From: Mycoplasma mobile 163K
GTDB lineage: Bacteria; Bacillota_I; Bacilli_A; Mycoplasmatales; Metamycoplasmataceae
Direction of reading: 5' to 3'
Length of the DNA stretch: 32,000 nt
Assembly: GCF_000008365.1 (NCBI RefSeq)
Contig: NC_006908.1
Location: 690,001 to 722,000 of the forward strand
Shown here: positions 13,022 through 31,320 of the stretch, piece after piece
Position numbering within the stretch: the first letter of the stretch is position 1
How the letters are laid out: the number at the start of each line of letters is the position of its first letter
Translations under genes and position numbers: made by a program
Notes under the pieces: generated by a model
Told to the model about the DNA's origin: nothing
Database searches by the model: none
Seen by the model: only the letters and a program-made list of their open reading frames with translations

Positions 13022-13264
13022 TTAAAAAAGATTAAATGCTTTTATTTTGAATTGTTGGAAGGATTTTACCAAAGCTACATCTTTTTCAACATTTTCAAAT
13101 CTATTTTTAATTTTATCTAATCTTAAATTTATACTTTTTGAAAGATTTTCAATTGCATTTAAAATATTTTGATTTGATTTTGTAGATTCTTTTTGATAAA
13201 AACTTCTCCGTAATATATTTATAAGAATTACCTCATTAAAAATTTCTTCTAATTTTATAGACAC
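13022..13264 (-). pseudogene. degenerate paralog of the coiled-coil gene at 13275..13613
   Basis: Shares ...KLEEIFN...KSNQNILNAIENLSKSINLRLDKI.NR.E.VEKDV with the upstream copy, including a ~46-bp perfect DNA match. It lacks the N-terminal 15 codons and has single-base deletions that scramble NDGNSYKYIIEGVFIKKEA into NEVILINILRRSFYQKES. The C-terminus is also frameshifted (SFQQFKIKAFNLF* instead of LPTIQ...). The only possible start is GTG 13264. Confidence 0.45.
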
Positions 13265-13274
13265 AAAATTATAA

Positions 13275-13613
13275 CTAAATATTTTTAAATTTAAGTTCTT
13301 TTTGAATTGTAGGAAGTGATTTGATAAAAGCAACATCTGATTTTAAAATACTAACATCTTTTTCAACTTTTTCAAGTCTATTTTCAATTTTATCTAATCT
13401 TGTGTTTATACTTTTAGAAAGATTTTCAATTTTAGTATCAAAACTTTTAGAAAGATTTTCAATTGCATTTAAAATATTTTGATTTGATTTTGTAGCTTCT
13501 TTTTTGATAAAAACTCCTTCAATAATATATTTATAAGAATTACCATCATTAAAAATTTCTTCTAATTTTTGAATTTCTGATTTTCTTATTATTTCTAATA
13601 TTTTCTTTTTCAA
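13275..13613 (-). CDS. small coiled-coil protein (112 aa), unknown function, apparently the intact family member
   Basis: TTG start 13613 preceded by AAAGGAG. Heptad-like ENLSKSFDTKIENLSKSINTRLDKIENRLEKVEKDVSILKSDV. Contains a 33-bp internal tandem duplication (21-bp identical cores at 13410..13430 and 13443..13463). Stop TAG 13277..13275. Confidence 0.6.
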   Translation of the reverse strand: MKKKILEIIRKSEIQKLEEIFNDGNSYKYIIEGVFIKKEATKSNQNILNAIENLSKSFDTKIENLSKSINTRLDKIENRLEKVEKDVSILKSDVAFIKSLPTIQKELKFKNI

Positions 13614-14329: not shown

Positions 14330-14351
14330 ATATTTTCCTACTTTCTTTGAT

Positions 14352-14780
14352 TTACTTTGATTTTTTAAATCCTTTAATAAATTTAAGAGCATTAAGTGTT
14401 GCGCCTTGATATTCCCCCGTAACTTTCAATGTAAAAGAACCATATTTATCTTGTGAATGAGCAATAGTTTCACCATCAATACTAATATTGAAAGTAACTC
14501 CTTTAATTGGTGGGGGTGTATCAAAGAAATCAGTAAGATTTTCATTTGTAATTTCTGAAGGTAATGTATTACTGATATCAATTTTTGAAACTAAAATTAG
14601 AGATCTAATTGTATCTAAAATAATTTGTCTTTTTCAAAGTACATCAGGACTAACACTTGTTACTGGATCAGTTGTGCTTATACTTGTACTTGTACTTGTA
14701 TTACCACAAGCTACAACAGCAACCATTGGAATTACAACCATTGTCGTTGCTCCTAAACTTAAAAATATTTTCTTTTTCAT
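14352..14780 (-). CDS. lipoprotein (142 aa) with a Lipoprotein_17-like surface domain; the only intact cassette (X)
   Basis: MKKKIFLSLGATTMVVIPMVAVVAC|GNTSTSTSIS: signal peptide plus lipobox Cys. Body ...TLPSEITNENLTDFF...GSFTLKVTGEYQ...IKGFKKSK* matches the pattern of mycoplasma lipoprotein-associated domains. One TGA=Trp. SD-like AAAGGAAAGAGAG upstream. Confidence 0.75.
14638..14688. repeat. inverted repeat IR1-left (partner 15083..15133)
   Basis: 51 bp with 2 mismatches to the reverse complement of 15083..15133. Encodes TSISTTDPVTS(V/A)SPDVL at the start of the mature lipoprotein. Confidence 0.85.
14682..14699. repeat. hexanucleotide microsatellite (ACAAGT)x3 on the coding strand (Thr-Ser repeats)
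   Basis: acttgt x3 perfect on the plus strand, plus a degenerate fourth unit. Sits exactly at the signal-peptide/mature-protein junction of cassette X. Cassette Z has one unit. Confidence 0.8.
14696..14780. repeat. inverted repeat IR2-left (signal-peptide module; partner 15440..15524)
   Basis: 85 bp with 7 mismatches by manual alignment to the reverse complement of 15440..15524. Confidence 0.8.
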
Positions 14781-14814
14781 ATATTTCTCTCTTTCCTTTG
14801 AGTTTTATAACTCA

Positions 14815-14820
14815 ATTATA
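14815..14820 (-). promoter_or_regulatory. candidate -10 box for lipoprotein cassette X
   Basis: The minus strand reads AAAATATAATTGAG, 35-40 nt upstream of ATG 14780. It lies inside the segment bounded by IR1. Confidence 0.25.
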
Positions 14821-15082
14821 TTTTCTAGTTGTTAGATGTATTTCTAACTAAGCAAGCAAAATAATTATAAAAGTATTTCTTTATTATAATTATTTTATCT
14901 AAACTTTTTTAATTTGAATAAAAAGTAAAAAATCGTTGTCTCACTCTTATAATTTTATCATTAAACTCATAAGAAAATAATATTAATTATTTTTGTTTTT
15001 ATTTTGAAAGAAAGTAATATTTTTTAAATTTTGATTTATTTTAGGAAAGCAAAATTGTTTCAATATTTTATTTTCTTTATCT

Positions 15083-15418
15083 ACAAGTATAAGTACAACT
15101 GATCCAGTAACAAGTGCTAGTCCTGATGTACTTGCAAAAAGAGGAGTAATTCTATCTGCAATTGATAAGGTAATTTTTAATCCAATAGGTGATTTTGCAA
15201 ATACCTTACCTTCTCAAGTTAATAATGAAACTTTAAATCAATTTATAAAAACACCAGATTCAATTAATGGAGTAAGTTTTATTGTCAGTATTGATGACGA
15301 AGCAATTAAAAGTTCAAGTGATAAACAAGGTGTATTAGTAATTAGAGTAAGTGGAACATTAGATGGTGTATAAAATCAAAGTATTATAACTATTGGTGGT
15401 TTTAAAAAATCAGAGTAA
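15083..15418 (+). pseudogene. 5'-truncated lipoprotein cassette Z (no start, no signal peptide; in-frame TAA 15371)
   Basis: Begins exactly at TSISTTDPVTSASPDVL..., continues ...TLPSQVNNETLNQFIKTPDSINGVSFIVSIDDEAIKSSSDKQGVLVIRVSGTLDGV*NQSIITIGGFKKSE*. Paralogous to X along its whole mature length. Opposite orientation to X. Confidence 0.65.
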
Positions 15419-15439
15419 ATCAAAGAAGGTAAGAGGATT

Positions 15440-15550
15440 ATGAAAAAGAAAATGTTTTTAGGTTTAGGAGCAACAACAATGGTTGCAATTCCGATGGTTG
15501 CTGTAGTTGCTTGTGGTAATACAATATTTAAATATTCTTTTAATTTTTAA
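15440..15550 (+). pseudogene. orphan lipoprotein signal-peptide module W (36 codons) lacking a mature domain
   Basis: MKKKMFLGLGATTMVAIPMVAVVACGNT then unrelated IFKYSFNF*. Has its own SD (AAGGTAAGAGG). Homology to X stops at GGTAATACAA. Confidence 0.55.
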
Positions 15551-25203: not shown

Positions 25204-26154
25204 ATGAAAAGAATTATTGTAACAGGTTGTTTAGGTCAAATAGGATCGGAATTAATTGCTCGTTTAAGAAAAGACAAAGGAACTGAAAATGTTCTTGCAA
25301 CCGATATAAAAAAACCTGAAAATCACCCTGTTATTAAAAATGGGTTATTTGAAACTTTAGATGTTTTAGATGAAGTTAAAATGTATGATCTTGCTAAAAA
25401 TTTTAAAGCCGATACAATTATTCATTTAGCCTCATTGCTATCTGCAACAGCAGAAGATAAACCGCAATTTGCTTGACATTTAAACATGACAGGTCTTATG
25501 AATGCTTTAGAAACAGCAAGAAAACTAAATTTGAAATTTTTTACACCAAGTTCGATTGGAGCATTTGGGCCAGAAACACCTAAAGTAAATACGCCTCAAG
25601 ATACTATCCAACGTCCTAAAACAATGTATGGAATTACTAAAACTGCGGGTGAGTTATTATGTGATTATTACTATAATAAATTTGGGGTTGACACAAGAGG
25701 AGTTCGTTTTCCGGGATTAATTTCTTATGATACTTTACCTGGCGGAGGAACAACTGATTATGCTGTTGAAATTTATTATGAGGCAATAAAAAAAGGTATG
25801 TATAAATCTCCTATTGGTAAAGGTACTTATATGGATATGATGTATATGCCTGATGCTATTGATAGTATTATTAAGTTGTTAGAAACACCGCAAGAAAAAT
25901 TAATTCATAGAAATGCTTTTAATGTGTCTGCAATGTCTTTTGATCCTGAAGAAATTAAAAATAGTATTAAAAAATTTATTCCAAGTTTTTCAATGACTTA
26001 TGAAGTAAATCCAAAATTGCAAAAAATTGCGAATTCTTGACCTGATTCTTTAGATGTATCAGCCGCTAAAAAAGAGTGAGGCTTTTCTCCTAAATATAAT
26101 TTAGATGAAATGTCTAAAGATATGATTGAAAAATTAAATAAAAAACTAGCTTAA
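25204..26154 (+). CDS. tdh: L-threonine 3-dehydrogenase, SDR/epimerase type
   Basis: SD AAGGAG. Rossmann [12 protein letters not shown], catalytic YGITKTAGE (YxxxK), [14 protein letters not shown] characteristic of short-chain TDH. Three fragments join across TGA. Stop TAA 26152..26154. Confidence 0.85.
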
Positions 26155-26166
26155 TGCTAGTTTTTT
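26140..26166. terminator. bidirectional terminator between convergent tdh and pdhD
   Basis: AAAAAACTAGC / GCTAGTTTTTT, 11-bp stem, 5-nt loop containing the tdh stop codon. Confidence 0.65.
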
Positions 26167-26179
26167 ATTTAATTTTCCT

Positions 26180-27982
26180 TTATTTCTTTTTTAATTTGTG
26201 ACTTGCTGTACGGGCATTTTCTCAAATAATTTCACTGAAAGTAGGGTGAGGGTGTATTGCATTAGCAATTTCATGAACTGTTGTTTCTAAATCTATAGCA
26301 ACAACTAATTCACTAATTAAATCAGTTGCATGTGCTCCAATAATATGAGCTCCTAAAATTTCATGAGTTTCTTTATCAATAATTAATTTAGAAAAACCCA
26401 TTGTTTGATCTGATGCAATTGCTTTTCCAATAAATTTCATTTGATGTTTTTCAGAAATATATGCTCTACCACTTTCTTTTGCTTGTCTTTCGGACATTCC
26501 TACAGAAGCAATTTCAGGATGTGTGTAAATACATGCTGGGACTGTTTTACCTGTATAAGATAGATCTCCGTTTCCTAAAAGATGTTTTATTGCAATGTGA
26601 GCATGTTGATAAGCGACATGAGCAAGCATAGTTTTAAAAGTGACATCCCCAATTGCGTAAGCTCCTGGAATATTTGTTTGACAAAATTCATTAATAACAA
26701 TTTCGCCTTTTTCACCAATTTGATATCCGACTTCTTTTGCATTAGCAATGACTGGAATTCTACCAACTGAGACCATAATTTTTGAAGCCTTAATTGTTTT
26801 AGCTTCTCCGTTTACTTTGTAATGTAAAGTATCTTTTTCAATTTTAACAGTTTCTGCATTATAAACAATTTGGATTCCTGAACTTATTAATTTATCAGAT
26901 AAAACTTTAATAACATCTTCATCCAAAGCAGGAATGATTGTTGGAGCATTTTGAATAACTGTTACTTTAGAACCTGACGCTGCAAAAATTTGAGCAAATT
27001 CAATTCCAATAACTCCTCCACCAATAATTACTAATTCTTTTGGTAAAGATTCAATTTGAATTGCTTCTTCAGCTGTAATTGCAAATCCTGATTTATAAGC
27101 TTCTTCAAAACCTGGCAAAGTTAATTTTCTATTTTTTGAACCTGTTGCAATAATGATATTTTCAGCTTCATAAATTTCACCATTAACTTGAACAACCTTA
27201 GGCGCTAAAAATTTAGCCTCTCCATTAATGGTTTTAACTTTGTTCCCCTTCATAAGAGCAAGAACACCACCAACAAGAGTATTAACAACTTTTTGCTTTC
27301 TTTCTTGCATTTTTTTTCAATTCATTTTAAGTTTAGAAACATCAATATCTAATCCATAATCTGAAGCGTGTGAAAGTTGCTCGAACACTTCTGTTGATTT
27401 TAATAAAGCTTTTGTTGGAATACATCCCACATTAAGACATACTCCTCCTCAATATTCTTTTTCAATAATCAGAGTTTTTTTACCATTTTTACCAGCTTCT
27501 TCAGCAGCTAAATACCCACCAGGACCACTACCTAAAACAATAACATCATATTTATCAGTGATTTTCCCATTAAAAGATGTTGGTTGAATAGATGTTGATG
27601 ATGTAGGAGTACTTGAAGTTTTTTTTCCAAAAGACATAACTTCATCTGAAACAGCAACTTCTCCAACTACAGAAGCTCCACCACCTGCTTTTTTAGGAGC
27701 TTCTGCTTTTATTTCGGCAGGTTTAACTTCAATAGATTGTGAAGATGAACCATCATCAATGTAGTAAATTTCTTGACCAACATGAATTGTATCACCTTGA
27801 GCCATTGCTACTTTAACAATTTTTCCTGTAGCAGGAGAAGGAATATCAGAAGTTACTTTATCTGTTTCAACAGAAAATAAAGCTTCTCCTTCTTTTACCA
27901 TATCTCCTTCTTTTTTATAAATTTCAGCTACAAGACCTTCATGAAGTCCTTCACCAATATCTGCAAATTTAAATTTAAACAT
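26180..27982 (-). CDS. pdhD: dihydrolipoyl dehydrogenase (E3) with an N-terminal lipoyl domain (600 aa)
   Basis: ORFs 27449..27982 and 26222..27310 join in frame across TGA codons. Lipoyl motif [13 protein letters not shown], linker [18 protein letters not shown] motif VLGSGPGGY, redox disulfide [14 protein letters not shown]-terminal [11 protein letters not shown] 26222 read as Trp extends to TAA 26182..26180. Confidence 0.9.
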
Positions 27983-27983
27983 T

Positions 27984-29345
27984 TTAAAACACTCCTAATA
28001 GTTCTGGGTTTTCTAAAAAGTGTTTTACTTTTTGAGCAAATCTTCCAATTGTAGCCCCATCAACTCATCTATGATCTGCTGCAACAGTAAGATTCATAAT
28101 TTTACCTGCAACAATTCCATTTTTTGTAACAATTGGTTCATCTTTAATTACACCAATACCAGCAATTGCCATATCAGGATAATTAATAACAGGAATTCCG
28201 AATAACGAACCTACAGAAGCATAATTTGTAACTGTAAAATCACTTCCTTTTAGTTCATCTGCCTTGATTTTTTTATCTCTAGCAGCAACTGCAAGTCTAG
28301 TAATTTCTTTAGCAATTTCAATTATATTTAGTTTATCTGCATTTTTTATAACAGGAACCATTAGTCCTGCTTCGGTATCGACTGCAATTCCAATATTTAA
28401 AGTTCCTGAATAAACTAGTTCGCTTGCTTGTTCATCATATTTAGCCATTAAAACAGGAAATTCTTTTAATGCTAAAGTTATAGCTTTAATTATAAAAGGT
28501 AAAAAAGTTACTTTAACTCCAGTTAAATCTTGAACGGAATCTTTAATTTTTTCTCTTAAAGAAACTAGAGAACCAACATTAATTTCATTTACTAAATTAG
28601 TATAAGCAACATTTGATCAAGAATTTTTCATTGCTTTTGCAATAGCTTTTCTAATAGGAGTCACTTTTTCTCTTTTTAATTCATTAGCTAAAGAAATCAA
28701 AGGTTGAACTTGAGAATTTGAAACAGCTTTTTCAACATTTTGTTGAATTTGTTGAATGGAAACTGGTTTTGAAACAATCTCAGGGCTTTGTCCTAACATT
28801 TTAGCTCTTGCTAATGCTCTTCTGTTTGAAGATTCACTACTGTTTAAAGTATTTGTTTCAAAAACAACACTTTGTCCTAACATTTTAGCTCTTGCTAATG
28901 CTCTTCTGTTCTCAGGCGTTGCAGAAATGCTTGCACTTTGAACTATTTCTCTTGGAGAAACTTGAGATTGAGAATTTGAAGAATTACTATTTACTCTTCC
29001 AAAAGACATGACTTCATCTGAAACAGCAACTTCCCCAACAACAGAAGCTCCTCCCCCACCTGCTTTTTTAGGTGCTTCTGTTTTTATTCCAACAGAAGAA
29101 CTTGATGATGAACCATCTTCAATCTGGTAAATCTCTTGACCAACATGAATTGTATCACCTTTGAACATTGCTACTTTAATAATTTTTCCTGTAACAGGAG
29201 AAGGAATATCAGAAGTTACTTTATCTGTTTCCACAGAAAATAAAGCTTCTCCTTCTTTTACCATATCTCCTTCTTTTTTATAAATTTCGGCTACTACACC
29301 TTCGTGAAGTCCTTCACCAATATCTGCAAATTTAAATTTAAACAT
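27984..29345 (-). CDS. pdhC: dihydrolipoamide acetyltransferase (E2) copy 1: lipoyl domain + repeat-containing linker + catalytic domain (453 aa); chimeric pdhD-5'/pdhC-3'
   Basis: ORFs 28617..29345 and 28065..28448 plus a tail join across TGA (1362 nt = 454 codons). Lipoyl [13 protein letters not shown]. No canonical PSBD, only a duplicated (E/S)[14 protein letters not shown]. Catalytic DHRWVDGA. Stop TAA 27986..27984, one nt before the pdhD ATG. Confidence 0.85.
28228..28391. repeat. 164-bp perfect direct repeat, copy A (partner 29590..29753)
   Basis: Identical base for base to 29590..29753 by manual comparison, offset 1362 nt. Encodes [47 protein letters not shown] in both E2 genes. Confidence 0.85.
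28786..28826. repeat. 41-bp perfect direct repeat, copy 1 (partner 28870..28910; period 84 bp = 28 codons)
   Basis: ctttgtcctaacattttagctcttgctaatgctcttctgtt occurs twice. Encodes [14 protein letters not shown] in the E2 copy-1 linker. Confidence 0.9.
28870..28910. repeat. 41-bp perfect direct repeat, copy 2
   Basis: Identical to 28786..28826. Confidence 0.9.
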
Positions 29346-30242
29346 TTAATACACTCCTAACATATCTGGATTTTCTAATAATTTTTTAACTTCTTGAGCA
29401 AATCTTCCGATTGTTGCTCCATCTACTCATCTATGATCGGCTGCAACGGTTAAGTATAATACTTTCCCTGCAACAATTCCTTTATCACTAATGATTGCCT
29501 TGTCAACAATTGCTCCAATTCCTGCAATTGCAATATCTGGATAATTTATAACAGGTACTCCATATAATGACCCTACTGAAGCATAATTCGTAACTGTAAA
29601 ATCACTTCCTTTTAGTTCATCTGCCTTGATTTTTTTATCTCTAGCAGCAACTGCAAGTCTAGTAATTTCTTTAGCAATTTCAATTATATTTAGTTTATCT
29701 GCATTTTTTATAACAGGAACCATTAGTCCTGCTTCGGTATCGACTGCAATTCCTAAATTTAATGTTTTAGGATAAATTAATTCGCTATTTTGCTCATCAT
29801 ATTTTGCAGTTAAAATTGGAAATTTTTTTAGCGAAACATTGATGGCTTTGATAATAAAAGGTAAAAAAGTTACATTGACTCCTTCATCTTTTAAAATAGC
29901 ATCTTTAATTCTTGTTCTTGATTCTCATAAAGATGTAGCATCTATTTTTGTTACTAAATTTGTATAAGCAACATTTTCTCAAGAATTTGTCATTGCTTTA
30001 GCTATTGCTTTTCTTATTGGTGTTACTTTTTCTCTCTTGGCAACTGTTTGAGAAGTTGGATCAAATTGAGATTTAGCTAGTTGTAAATTGCTATTACTTG
30101 TAGCTGAATTTTTACTAAAATTCAAAACATCTTCTTGATAAATTCTTAATTTATTTTTTGATGGTTTTAATTTAGTAATATCAATTTTTAATTTCAGTGC
30201 TAAATTTTTTGCAAGTGGCGTGATTATGATTTTGTTTTCCAT
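29346..30242 (-). CDS. pdhC: dihydrolipoamide acetyltransferase (E2) copy 2: PSBD + catalytic domain, no lipoyl domain (298 aa)
   Basis: SD AAAGGAG. ATG 30242. ORFs 29979..30242 and 29427..29723 join across TGA (897 nt). PSBD-like IITPLAKNLALKLKIDITKLKPS...RIYQEDV. Catalytic DHRWVDGA. Stop TAA 29348..29346 abuts the ATG of copy 1. Confidence 0.85.
29590..29753. repeat. 164-bp perfect direct repeat, copy B
   Basis: Identical to 28228..28391. Confidence 0.85.
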
Positions 30243-30290: not shown

Positions 30291-30324
30291 AAAATAAAGT
30301 TTATTTTAAATAAAACTTTATTTT
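30291..30324 (-). terminator. hairpin between pdhB and E2 copy 2 (terminator/attenuator candidate)
   Basis: AAAATAAAGTTT (30291..30302) pairs with AAACTTTATTTT (30313..30324), 10-nt loop. Lies in the 97-nt gap after the pdhB stop, with T-rich sequence following on the minus strand. Confidence 0.4.
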
Positions 30325-30339
30325 CAATAGATTATTAAA

Positions 30340-31319
30340 TTATTCAGCTTTCAGTTCTCTTAATTTTGCAATGATTTTTTCTTTTGAAATAACAAAGAAG
30401 TTTTCACCTTTAGCAAGAGGAACTGTAATGTCATAACCTGTTAATCTTACTGGTGCTGCTGATAAGTATTCAAAAAGTTCTTCATTAACTCTTGTAATAA
30501 TTTCTGCTGAAACTGAAAATGATTTTACAGCTTCATGAACAACAATAAGTTTTCCTGTTTTTTTAACAGATTCTAAAATTGTATCAATATCAAGAGGTTT
30601 AATTGTTCTTAAATCAATTAATTCAACACTCATTTCACTTCCTAATTCTCTAATTGCTGCTAAAGAATCATGAACTTGTGCTCCATAAGTAACTAATGTA
30701 ATATCTGTTCCTTCTGTTAAAACATTAGCTTTACCAATTTCTACTTCATATTCTTCTGCAGGAATTTCTTCTTTAAAAGCACGATAGATTTTTTTAGGTT
30801 CAAAGAAAATAACAGGATCTGGATCTTTAATTGCTGCAATTAATAAACCTTTTGTGTCATAAGGAGTTGAAGGCAAGATAACCTTTAATCCTGGAATGTG
30901 TGCATATAAAGCTTCTAAAGCTTCTGAGTGATGCTCTAAAGCTCTAATTCCTCCACCCATAGGAATTCTTACAACCATAGGAACTGTAAAACGCCCTCTT
31001 GATCTATTTCTATATCTTGCAGCATGCGTGAATAGTTGCATCATTGCTGGGAAAGAAAAACCTGAAAATTGAATTTCTACAACTGGTTTTAATCCATAAA
31101 TTGCTGCTCCTACTCCTACTCCTGCAATTGCAGCTTCTGAAATAGGTGCATCAAAAATTCTTTTATCTCCAAATTTTGCTTGAAGTCCTTTAGTTGCTCT
31201 AAAAACTCCACCTTCATATCCGGCATCTTCACCTCAAAGAACAACATCTTTGTCTTTTTCCATCATAATTTCTAAAGCATTTGTAACTGCTTCGATATTA
31301 TTTACTTTAATTTTTGCCA

Positions 31320-31320
<1 letters not shown>
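30340..31320 (-). CDS. pdhB: pyruvate dehydrogenase E1 beta subunit
   Basis: ATG 31320 (MAKIKVNNIEAVTNALEIMMEKDKDVVLWGEDAG...) joins ORF 30340..31044 across TGA codons. 981 nt = 327 codons. Typical E1-beta sequence throughout. Confidence 0.95.

What the first reader, a model, noticed from the sequence alone, without database searches (positions are those of the whole stretch)
27984..30242. Extra, chimeric E2 gene produced by a ~1.36 kb tandem duplication across the pdhC/pdhD boundary
Three consecutive minus-strand genes follow pdhB. (i) A 298-aa E2 with a PSBD and catalytic domain but no lipoyl domain. (ii) A 453-aa E2 with a lipoyl domain, an unusual linker and a catalytic domain. (iii) E3 with its own N-terminal lipoyl domain. 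The first 80 residues of (ii) and (iii) differ at only 7 positions, and the linker EAPKKAGGG(G)[17 protein letters not shown] is shared. The nucleotide similarity runs on upstream through the start codons into the 3' ends of the preceding E2 genes (...GRFAQ.VK..LENP..LGV.*). The offset is constant at 1362-1363 nt, which equals the length of gene (ii). This is the signature of a tandem duplication whose unit begins inside pdhC and ends inside pdhD, fusing pdhD's lipoyl-linker module to a pdhC catalytic domain. From memory, a lipoyl-less PdhC plus a lipoyl-bearing PdhD has been described for Mycoplasma hyopneumoniae; this needs verifying. The inserted third gene re-creates a conventional lipoyl-E2 but without an obvious E1/E3-binding domain. 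The core could therefore be a mixed assembly of one PSBD-only and one lipoyl-only E2. I am not aware of that arrangement having been described.
Basis: partly seen in the sequence, partly recalled or inferred. Interest (0 to 1): 0.7.

Follow-up and report, generated by a model that had tools for sequence, protein, structure and literature searches.

The report
Extra chimeric E2 gene in Mycoplasma mobile
Mycoplasma mobile carries a second, old and intact pyruvate-dehydrogenase E2 gene that joins the lipoyl "swinging arm" of its E3 gene to the catalytic core of its E2 gene; two tortoise mycoplasmas have the same layout, so the enzyme core may be built from two complementary subunits.

Summary
With genetic code 4, the minus strand encodes pdhB, E2a (298 aa: binding domain PSBD plus catalytic domain CAT), E2b (453 aa: lipoyl, linker, CAT; no PSBD) and E3 (600 aa, with its own lipoyl domain). 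The organism is Mycoplasma mobile 163K, and both E2 genes are already in GenBank.

E2b's CAT is closest to E2a's, and its lipoyl domain is closest to E3's. Similarity runs unbroken across both gene junctions. This fits a tandem duplication across the pdhC/pdhD boundary.

The duplication is old. Synonymous sites are near saturation (pS 0.49). A 164-nt stretch of perfect identity (P~1e-18) and a 94%-identical lipoyl domain show later gene conversion. This is not an assembly artefact.

The "constant offset" follows automatically from the genes being adjacent. About 105 residues of E2b's linker match neither parent gene.

The layout is not unique. M. agassizii and M. testudineum have it; M. pulmonis and six other relatives examined do not. 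Trees favour two independent origins.

A mixed E2a/E2b core is plausible but untested. I found no paper describing this. RefSeq models cut off the lipoyl domain in two species. I rate it a new variant of a known kind, of moderate interest.

The parts
30340..31320 (-). pdhB (E1 beta, 326 aa). It lies upstream of the E2 genes.
   Evidence: Code-4 ORF. It is 61-73% identical to the E1b proteins of relatives.
30292..30323 (-). AT-rich hairpin followed by a run of T in the 97-nt pdhB-E2a spacer. It may be a terminator or attenuator that separates pdhAB from pdhC1-C2-D.
   Evidence: Sequence read. Fold energy -8.7 kcal/mol, z -2.8. This is an inference only.
29346..30242 (-). E2a (pdhC-1, AAT28068.1, 298 aa). 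It has a PSBD (residues 5-40, 30123-30230) and a CAT domain (residues 69-295, 29358-30038), and no lipoyl domain.
   Evidence: An AGGAG Shine-Dalgarno motif lies 8 nt upstream of the ATG.
27984..29345 (-). E2b (pdhC-2, AAT28067.1 / Q6KH63, 453 aa): lipoyl domain, linker and CAT, with no PSBD.
   Evidence: AGGAG lies 8 nt upstream of the ATG, inside the 3' end of E2a.
29121..29336 (-). E2b lipoyl domain (residues 4-75; lipoyl-lysine in ETDKV, K42). It is about 94% identical at nucleotide level to the E3 lipoyl domain.
   Evidence: Pfam PF00364, 63 bits. pS 0.12 and pN 0.05 against E3. 93.6% identity over codons 1-78. AF2 pLDDT 79-96.
28998..29051 (-). Post-lipoyl motif [18 protein letters not shown] (E2b residues 99-116). 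M. mobile E3 has it too, as do most Mollicute E2 and E3 proteins.
28677..28997 (-). E2b-specific linker (residues 117-223). It has no detectable homologue in E2a, E3 or the flanking DNA, and is predicted to be disordered apart from two short helices.
   Evidence: Local-alignment z-scores of 1.9 and 0.1 against shuffles. hhalign against a PSBD profile gave probability 0.1%. AF2 pLDDT below 60.
28870..28910 (-). First copy of an exact 41-nt repeat. It encodes [14 protein letters not shown] (residues 146-159), predicted helix 144-155.
28786..28826 (-). Second copy of the exact 41-nt repeat (residues 174-187), predicted helix 173-183.
27987..28676 (-). E2b catalytic domain (residues 224-453). The DHRWVDG active-site motif is intact.
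   Evidence: Pfam PF00198, 281 bits. The columns invariant across homologues are kept. The closest solved structure is the G. stearothermophilus E2p core.
28228..28391 (-). Gene-conversion tract in E2b: 164 nt that are 100% identical to 29590-29753 in E2a.
   Evidence: Identity in the flanks is 73-78%. P of such a run is about 1e-18.
29590..29753 (-). The partner of the conversion tract, in E2a.
26180..27982 (-). E3 (pdhD, 600 aa), with an N-terminal lipoyl domain (residues 4-75, 27758-27973).
   Evidence: AGGAG lies 9 nt upstream of the ATG.
26131..26175 (.). Terminator-like hairpin (20-bp stem) just after the E3 stop codon. It lies between E3 and a convergent gene, and probably marks the end of the operon.

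Best explanation
E2b is a real and long-maintained chimeric paralogue of pdhC.

Origin (inferred from trees and the homology map). The ancestor had the arrangement typical of the hominis group: a lipoyl-less PdhC (PSBD plus CAT) followed by a lipoyl-bearing PdhD. In the M. mobile lineage, unequal recombination duplicated a block running from inside pdhC to inside pdhD. The new middle gene joined pdhD's Shine-Dalgarno site, lipoyl domain and post-lipoyl linker to pdhC's catalytic domain, and left out the PSBD.

Maintenance (shown). The copies have since diverged to near-saturation at synonymous sites, while amino-acid change has been restrained. They are patched from time to time by gene conversion with both parent genes.

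Function (inferred). All three genes have their own AGGAG ribosome-binding site, lie head to tail, and are probably co-transcribed. E2b is made from the long start, is lipoylated on K42 and is catalytically competent. Because it has no PSBD, it most likely works by co-assembling with E2a in one core. E2a would supply the docking sites for E1 and E3. E2b would add a lipoyl arm tethered to the core, alongside the arm carried by E3. That would increase the number of swinging arms and uncouple it from E3 occupancy.

The same gene design arose separately in the ancestor of M. agassizii and M. testudineum.
For: Gene structure and domains.

Chimeric ancestry:
- The E2a and E2b CAT domains are sisters at 99%, or 80-83% with the conversion tract masked.
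- The E2b and E3 lipoyl domains are sisters at 83%.
- Similarity is continuous across both gene junctions.

Age and selection:
- Outside the tract, pS is 0.49 and pN 0.18. Against other species the values are pS 0.45-0.69 and pN 0.24-0.29.
- The ORF is intact over 453 codons, and the active-site motif and the invariant columns are kept.
- In the tortoise species the E2b orthologues show pS 0.58 and pN 0.12.

Gene conversion: a 164-nt identical run, P~1e-18. In all three species the lipoyl domains of the paralogues are closer within a genome than between species.

Translation signals: AGGAG lies 8-9 nt before each ATG.

No PSBD in E2b.

Independent origin:
- M. pulmonis (two genes) is sister to the tortoise pair at 100% in an E1b+E3 tree, while M. 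mobile groups elsewhere.
- E2b proteins from the two lineages grouped together in 0 of 500 bootstraps.
- The linker motifs differ between the lineages.

Precedent for the two-gene parent state: M. hyopneumoniae.
Against: - No expression, lipoylation or assembly data could be found. Jaffe et al. 2004, the M. mobile proteome paper, is not held.
- RefSeq now also carries a 299-aa model that starts at M155 and would lack the lipoyl domain.
- The fusion junction is not identifiable, because 105 linker residues have no parent.
- Because gene conversion is demonstrated, sister grouping of paralogues within a genome cannot by itself exclude an older, shared duplication.
- The trees are neighbour-joining on short alignments, and several deep nodes are weak.
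- A mixed core is only one way for a PSBD-less E2 to function.
Confidence: 0.6

Rival explanations
1. Single ancient origin. The three-gene layout arose once, before M. mobile, M. pulmonis and the tortoise mycoplasmas diverged. One version has a conventional lipoyl-PSBD-CAT E2 duplicating and then subfunctionalising into E2a (which lost the lipoyl domain) and E2b (which lost the PSBD). E2b was then lost repeatedly, and gene conversion makes the paralogues look lineage-specific.
For: - Gene conversion is demonstrated in M. mobile. Concerted evolution of the lipoyl domains is seen in the tortoise species even though their E2b gene predates their split.
- E2b lacks a PSBD in both lineages and carries repeated short basic helical motifs in the same linker position.
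- The post-lipoyl motif of E2b is also typical of conventional Mollicute E2 proteins.
Against: - On the E1b+E3 tree this scenario needs at least three independent losses: M. pulmonis, adleri/felifaucium and the collis/sp. 6243 clade.
- There is no trace of E2a/E2b orthology groups anywhere in CAT, even with the conversion tract masked (0 of 500 bootstraps).
- pN between the M. mobile paralogues (0.18) is below every between-species value (0.24-0.29).
- The linker motifs of the two lineages show no significant similarity.
Confidence: 0.25
2. E2b works on its own rather than in a mixed core. The repeated amphipathic basic helices in its linker ([14 protein letters not shown] twice; in the tortoise species MPKGLxKRExxxWLKNQ) would be a new, minimal docking motif that recruits E1 and/or E3 in place of a PSBD. 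Alternatively, E2b has a separate role, such as a moonlighting one.
For: - The linker motif is conserved between M. agassizii and M. testudineum while the surrounding linker is not.
- It is duplicated almost exactly in both M. mobile (41 of 41 nt) and M. agassizii.
- AF2 predicts the only linker helices exactly at the two motif copies.
- Similar basic helices occur in the E3 linkers of M. collis and M. hyorhinis.
Against: - There is no statistical similarity to the PSBD or between the motifs of the two lineages.
- The helices have low pLDDT (45-60).
- The CAT domains of E2a and E2b are 78% identical and are still exchanging sequence, which fits shared assembly better than separate cores.
- There is no experimental hint of any kind.
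Confidence: 0.15
3. E2b is a decaying or non-functional by-product of duplication, or only the short 299-aa CAT-only product is made.
For: RefSeq holds a 299-aa model for M. mobile and a 279-aa model for M. testudineum. E2b's PSBD is missing.
Against: - The 453-codon frame is open in a genome of 26% G+C despite near-saturated synonymous divergence.
- pN/pS is well below 1 in both the CAT and the lipoyl parts.
- The lipoyl-lysine motif and the catalytic motif are intact.
- A Shine-Dalgarno site lies at the long start.
- The same design is retained in two tortoise species since before they split.
Confidence: 0.05
4. Assembly artefact: a collapsed or expanded repeat has created a false extra gene.
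For: None beyond the tandem arrangement itself.
Against: - The copies differ at about 19% of CAT positions and about 6% of lipoyl positions, and each has unique segments.
- The middle gene has a 321-nt region found nowhere else in the locus.
- Independent assemblies of two other species show the same layout.
Confidence: 0.01

Closest known systems
Mycoplasma hyopneumoniae PDH arrangement (Matic et al. 2003, Gene 319:99; lipoylated PdhD shown in PMC7873978)
   Same: It has a lipoyl-less PdhC (PSBD plus CAT, about 300 aa) followed by PdhD with an N-terminal lipoyl domain. M. mobile's E2a and E3 are this pair, and the same pair is found in M. pulmonis, M. collis, Moose RK, adleri, felifaucium and others.
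   Different: M. mobile has a third gene between the two. It puts a lipoyl domain back on a catalytic core, without a PSBD.
Three-gene pdh loci of Mycoplasmopsis agassizii and Mycoplasma testudineum (genome records only; I found no description in the literature)
   Same: The order and domain content are identical: a PSBD-CAT gene of about 305 aa, a lipoyl-linker-CAT gene of 414-446 aa without a PSBD, and a lipoyl-E3 gene. Within each genome the paralogues resemble each other.
   Different: The linker motif is different (MPKGLxKRExxxWLKNQ). The CAT domains form their own clade, and these species are separated from M. mobile by two-gene species. No long identical conversion tract was detected.
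Conventional Gram-positive / Mollicute E2p (lipoyl-PSBD-CAT), e.g. Geobacillus stearothermophilus E2p (PDB 3duf, 1b5s)
   Same: E2b has the same lipoyl and CAT folds and the same active-site motif. G. stearothermophilus E2p is the best match among solved structures (E 8.6e-71).
   Different: E2b has no PSBD between the lipoyl domain and CAT. The PSBD sits on a separate paralogue.
Eukaryotic E3-binding protein (E3BP / protein X) in mixed E2-E3BP PDH cores (e.g. PDB 6h60)
   Same: A paralogue of E2 with a lipoyl domain and a core-forming domain co-assembles with E2, and the two divide the binding tasks between them. This is the closest model for how a mixed E2a/E2b core could work.
   Different: E3BP keeps a subunit-binding domain, and (from general knowledge) has lost the catalytic histidine. 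E2b has lost the binding domain and keeps DHRWVDG. The origins are unrelated. Co-assembly of E2a and E2b is not shown.
Lipoyl-bearing E3 proteins (Neisseria meningitidis, Alcaligenes eutrophus (now Cupriavidus necator), M. capricolum; double-lipoyl E3 in many Mycoplasmopsis species)
   Same: The lipoyl domain is a movable module within PDH loci. Some relatives raise the number of lipoyl domains by duplicating the domain inside E3 (E3 of about 720 aa).
   Different: In M. mobile the extra lipoyl domain ended up on a copy of the catalytic core rather than as a second domain on E3.

Membership tests
2-oxoacid dehydrogenase E2 acyltransferase (dihydrolipoamide acetyltransferase) | C-terminal catalytic domain (PF00198) with the DHRxxDG active-site motif | tested here: met
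   PF00198 scores 281 bits for E2b and 269 bits for E2a. AADHRWVDG is present in both, and the invariant columns are kept.
2-oxoacid dehydrogenase E2 acyltransferase (dihydrolipoamide acetyltransferase) | At least one N-terminal lipoyl domain with the lipoyl-lysine (DK) motif | tested here: met
   For E2b, PF00364 scores 63 bits at residues 4-75, with the ETDKV motif and a confident AF2 fold. E2a does not meet this feature.
2-oxoacid dehydrogenase E2 acyltransferase (dihydrolipoamide acetyltransferase) | Peripheral-subunit-binding domain (PF02817) between the lipoyl domain and CAT | tested here: not met
   E2b has no Pfam hit at E<=1. hhalign against a 17-sequence PSBD profile gave probability 0.1%. 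AF2 shows no folded domain in residues 81-223. E2a meets this feature marginally (24.5 bits against a cut-off of 23.7).
2-oxoacid dehydrogenase E2 acyltransferase (dihydrolipoamide acetyltransferase) | Actual lipoylation, acetyltransferase activity and assembly into a 24- or 60-mer core | not testable with these tools
   This needs an anti-lipoate blot, an enzyme assay, and native mass spectrometry or cryo-EM.
Chimeric gene formed by tandem segmental duplication | Each half is most closely related to a different neighbouring gene of the same genome | tested here: met
   CAT is sister to E2a's (99%, or 80-83% masked). The lipoyl domain is sister to E3's (83%).
Chimeric gene formed by tandem segmental duplication | Collinear nucleotide homology that runs across the gene boundaries of the repeated unit | tested here: met
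   Repeats D1 and D2 overlap the stop/start junctions, with a 1-nt indel.
Chimeric gene formed by tandem segmental duplication | An identifiable fusion junction where homology switches from one parent to the other | tested here: not met
   The 321 nt between the two homologous blocks match neither parent (z 1.9 and 0.1).
Concerted evolution by gene conversion between paralogues | Mosaic identity: a tract of identity far longer than the background divergence allows | tested here: met
   164 identical nt against a background of 75% identity, P~1e-18. pS is 0 inside the tract and about 0.5 outside it.
Concerted evolution by gene conversion between paralogues | Paralogues within a genome are closer than orthologues, although the duplication predates speciation | tested here: met
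   In the tortoise species the lipoyl domains have pN 0.08 and 0.12 within a genome, against 0.19 and 0.15 between species (tree). The E2b orthologues group at 80-99% in CAT. The lipoyl domain is short (78 codons), so the support is moderate.
E3BP-like non-catalytic core paralogue | Retains a subunit-binding domain and has lost the catalytic histidine | tested here: not met
   E2b has no binding domain and keeps DHRWVDG. The resemblance is one of working principle only.

The most novel reading that the evidence does not exclude
Some mycoplasmas build the PDH core from two catalytically competent E2 paralogues with complementary accessory modules. One carries only the docking domain for E1 and E3; the other carries only the lipoyl arm. 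This split design has evolved twice independently by the same kind of pdhC/pdhD-spanning duplication, and gene conversion keeps it compatible. In its strongest form, the short repeated basic helices in the E2b linker are a new minimal docking motif.
Probability: 0.3. Interest if true: 0.65.

Novelty: new variant of a known kind. Interest (0 to 1): 0.5.

Why it matters
The 2-oxoacid dehydrogenase complexes are textbook examples of modular, swinging-arm catalysis. In bacteria the core is normally built from a single E2 species that carries all three modules. The only well-studied mixed cores are the eukaryotic E2/E3BP cores.

A natural bacterial system in which the lipoyl arm and the docking domain sit on different, still-exchanging paralogues would be a simple test bed. 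M. mobile has a small genome and can be genetically manipulated. Such a system could address how many arms a core needs, whether arms tethered to E3 and to the core are equivalent, and how heteromeric cores stay compatible.

It is also a clean example of a gene born by a boundary-spanning duplication, of concerted evolution, and probably of convergent re-invention.

There is a practical point too. Current RefSeq models cut off the lipoyl domain of this gene in M. mobile and M. testudineum, so automated surveys will miss it.

Tried and rejected
- Table-11 ORF calling. It fragments every gene at TGA, so I replaced it with code 4.
- Looking for the fusion junction. I aligned the E2b linker DNA with E2a's 5' part plus the upstream spacer plus the end of pdhB, and with E3 downstream of MSFG. 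Neither match was significant. The protein half of that script used the wrong frame and was ignored.
- Testing whether the linker is a decayed PSBD. Pfam at E<=1, hhalign against a PSBD profile and AF2 were all negative. A by-eye likeness of [12 protein letters not shown] to PSBD helix 1 is therefore not claimed.
- Homology between the M. mobile and tortoise linker motifs. The alignment is not convincing.
- Literature. I found no paper on the double E2 using species, gene, accession or locus-tag terms. The locus tags were my own guesses. Jaffe et al. 2004 is not held.
- Metagenome scan for close relatives of M. mobile carrying E2b. Only distant hits came back.
- A search with the tortoise E2b lipoyl-linker region found no further species with that linker.
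- tRNA and Rfam scans of the window: nothing.
- The sigma-70 and terminator scan: promoter-like sites were fewer than in shuffles, so this was uninformative except for the hairpin after E3.
The survey of relatives is therefore a sample, not a census.
Full report
**1. What is there.**
The window has 26% G+C and uses TGA as a sense codon, so table-11 ORFs are fragmented. With code 4, the minus strand between 26.2 and 32 kb encodes the following genes:
- pdhA, cut by the window end.
- pdhB, 30340-31320.
- E2a, 29346-30242, 298 aa.
- E2b, 27984-29345, 453 aa.
- E3, 26180-27982, 600 aa.

E2a abuts E2b with no gap, and one base separates E2b from E3. Exact-match look-ups identify the organism as Mycoplasma mobile 163K. 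E2b is AAT28067.1 / Q6KH63 and E2a is AAT28068.1.

**2. Domains.**
Pfam results:
- E2a has a PSBD (residues 5-40, just above the cut-off) and CAT (69-295).
- E2b has a lipoyl domain (4-75) and CAT (222-450), and no PSBD hit even at E<=1.
- E3 has a lipoyl domain (4-75) followed by the flavoprotein domains.

A profile comparison of the E2b-type linkers with a 17-sequence PSBD alignment is negative (probability 0.1%).

AlphaFold2 with a 48-sequence alignment gives confident lipoyl (1-78) and CAT (224-453) folds. Residues 81-223 are disordered, except for two short low-confidence helices at 144-155 and 173-183. These helices coincide with two copies of [14 protein letters not shown], which are encoded by an exact 41-nt repeat.

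Both E2 proteins keep AADHRWVDG and the columns that are invariant across homologues. E2b and E3 keep the ETDKV lipoyl-lysine motif. The closest solved catalytic core is that of Geobacillus stearothermophilus E2p.

Each of the three genes has AGGAG 8-9 nt upstream of its ATG. For E2b and E3 this motif lies inside the conserved ...LGV codons of the preceding gene. A hairpin follows E3. An AT-rich hairpin lies in the pdhB-E2a spacer.

**3. The duplication.**
- The E2b and E3 N-termini differ at 7 of the first 80 residues.
- The post-lipoyl linker is shared.
- The CAT domains of E2a and E2b are 78% identical in protein and 81% in DNA.
- The similarity runs through both stop/start junctions.

Phylogenetically, E2b's CAT is sister to E2a's (99%; 80-83% when the conversion tract is masked). 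Its lipoyl domain is sister to E3's (83%). This is what a duplicated block running from inside pdhC to inside pdhD predicts.

- The constant offset of 1362-1363 nt is an arithmetical consequence of the three genes being adjacent. It is not an extra signature.
- The junction cannot be seen. E2b residues 117-223 (321 nt) match neither E2a's 5' part and upstream DNA nor E3 beyond MSFG.

**4. Age and concerted evolution.**
The duplication is not recent.
- In CAT, pS is 0.4-0.65 in most windows. That is the same as between species, so it is near saturation. It drops to zero across E2b residues ~325-369.
- That tract is 164 nt of perfect identity (28228-28391 = 29590-29753), within flanks that are 73-78% identical. 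The probability of such a run is about 1e-18.
- Outside the tract, pN is 0.18 between the paralogues, against 0.24-0.29 to M. pulmonis and the tortoise species.
- The lipoyl domains are 94% identical (pS 0.12, pN 0.05).

So this is an old duplicate under purifying selection that is repeatedly patched by gene conversion from both neighbours. That rules out an assembly artefact and argues strongly against a pseudogene.

**5. Relatives.**
A scan of species-representative genomes, plus targeted look-ups, gave pdh loci for eleven Mollicutes.
- Seven hominis-group loci have the two-gene arrangement of lipoyl-less PdhC plus lipoyl-PdhD: M. pulmonis, M. collis, sp. 6243, Moose RK, M. adleri, M. felifaucium and a Logan contig.
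- Lipoyl-bearing E3 is widespread in the class. Some Mycoplasmopsis E3 proteins carry two lipoyl domains.
- Mycoplasmopsis agassizii and Mycoplasma testudineum have exactly the M. mobile layout: PSBD-CAT (305 / 304 aa), lipoyl-linker-CAT without a PSBD (446 / 414 aa), and lipoyl-E3.

So the arrangement is not unique. It is rare, though. A search with the tortoise E2b lipoyl-linker region found only those two species, and I found no description in the searchable literature.

**6. One origin or two?**
Evidence favouring two origins:
- In an E1b+E3 tree, M. pulmonis (two genes) is sister to the tortoise pair (100%). M. mobile groups with the collis/sp. 6243 clade (81%).
- In CAT trees, the four tortoise sequences form one clade (99-100%) and the M. 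mobile pair forms another. A clade uniting E2b across the two lineages appears in 0 of 500 bootstraps.
- Within the tortoise clade the E2b orthologues group together (80%; 99% in the C-terminal third). Their duplication therefore predates their split.
- The E2b linkers carry different motifs: MPKGL[SR]KRE..W[AL]KN in the tortoise species, present twice in M. agassizii and once in M. testudineum.

Two gains are more parsimonious than one gain plus three or more losses.

Because gene conversion is active, a single older origin cannot be excluded. I give it about 25%. The trees are neighbour-joining on short alignments.

**7. How it probably works.**
These points are shown: the domain content, intact motifs, signs of purifying selection, ribosome-binding sites and operon context. 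The rest is inferred.

E2b is translated from the long start, lipoylated on K42, and catalytically active. Lacking a PSBD, a core made only of E2b could not recruit E1 or E3 in the canonical way. The simplest model is therefore co-assembly with E2a. E2a would provide docking, and E2b would add a core-tethered arm next to the arm carried by E3.

The ongoing sequence exchange between the CAT domains would help to keep their interfaces compatible.

Relatives that duplicated the lipoyl domain inside E3 suggest that extra arms are repeatedly favoured in this group.

An alternative is that the repeated basic helices in the linker are themselves docking motifs. They are conserved between the tortoise species and duplicated almost exactly in two lineages. 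There is no statistical or experimental support for this.

**8. Comparison with known systems and verdict.**
E2b is a member of the E2 acyltransferase family by its CAT and lipoyl domains, but it fails the PSBD criterion. A mixed core would work like the eukaryotic E2/E3BP core. E2b is not an E3BP homologue in the defining features: it keeps the catalytic histidine and lacks a binding domain.

The finding is a new variant of a known kind. The genes have been public since 2004, but their chimeric nature, age, concerted evolution and recurrence in tortoise mycoplasmas appear not to have been described. Interest is moderate (0.5), because all the functional claims await experiment.

Noticed in passing
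window 27984-29345; L002 6699-7943: Public annotation hides the lipoyl domain of the middle gene. RefSeq has a 299-aa model for M. mobile (WP_192805348.1, starting at M155) alongside the 453-aa one. The NCBI protein for M. testudineum is a 279-aa CAT-only model, although the open frame encodes 414 aa including a lipoyl domain.
   Followed up: partly
window 28998-29051 and 27625-27680; E2 and E3 proteins of many Mollicutes: A strongly conserved motif, [12 protein letters not shown](E/D)L(F/L)..., follows the lipoyl domain in nearly all Mollicute E3 proteins and conventional E2 proteins. It is missing from the E3 of M. pulmonis and M. testudineum. I know of no function for it. AF2 leaves it unstructured.
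   Followed up: partly
P0149 (M. collis E3), P0143 (M. hyorhinis E3), P0140 (M. neurolyticum E3): The E3 linkers of these species contain a basic helix-like stretch (PNRLAARRAAKMQQ, LSRRAAMRERALAQQ). It resembles the repeated [14 protein letters not shown] of M. mobile E2b. It may hint that the E2b linker derives from an ancestral E3 linker. The similarity is short and of low complexity.
   Followed up: no
L006 6773-8938 (M. adleri), L008 6728-8872 (M. felifaucium); P0127-P0129, P0137, P0144-P0146, P0155, P0157, P0159, P0160: Many Mycoplasmopsis E3 proteins are about 720 aa long and carry two tandem lipoyl domains. This is another way of adding swinging arms.
   Followed up: no
L004 5394-6620 (uncultured Mycoplasmatales MAG): A conventional E2 is split by one in-frame TAA into a 128-aa lipoyl-only ORF and a 276-aa PSBD-CAT ORF, and the E3 there has no lipoyl domain. 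This could be a real split or a sequencing error.
   Followed up: partly
P0080 vs P0028 (Malacoplasma iowae-like E2): A 397-aa variant of the 453-aa M. iowae-type E2 lacks the PSBD segment altogether. It may be another PSBD-less lipoyl-E2, or an assembly variant.
   Followed up: no
P0013 / P0243 (M. fastidiosum), P0023 / P0250 (M. cavipharyngis): These pneumoniae-group species each have two full-length E2 genes on one chromosome. P0023 contains two PSBD copies. I did not examine their loci.
   Followed up: no
window 13060-13505 and 14336-15524: This is a repeat-rich, poorly coding stretch. It has direct repeats 13062-13154 / 13339-13431 (86%) and 13133-13194 / 13443-13504 (97%). It also has inverted repeats 14607-14798 vs 15082-15524 (85%) that place two lipoprotein-like N-termini (...STSISTTDPVTS.SPDVL.KR) in opposite orientations. 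This may be a variable surface-protein locus.
   Followed up: partly
window 30292-30323 (minus strand): A perfect 13-bp AT-rich hairpin followed by a run of T lies in the pdhB-E2a spacer (dG -8.7 kcal/mol, z -2.8). It would fit separate pdhAB and pdhC-C-D transcription units, as in the M. hyopneumoniae pdhCD operon.
   Followed up: partly
P0211 (M. capricolum E3): The post-lipoyl segment VEVVEENASVVGATPVSNDVLPSRAPKPK is duplicated in tandem in the E3 linker.
   Followed up: no
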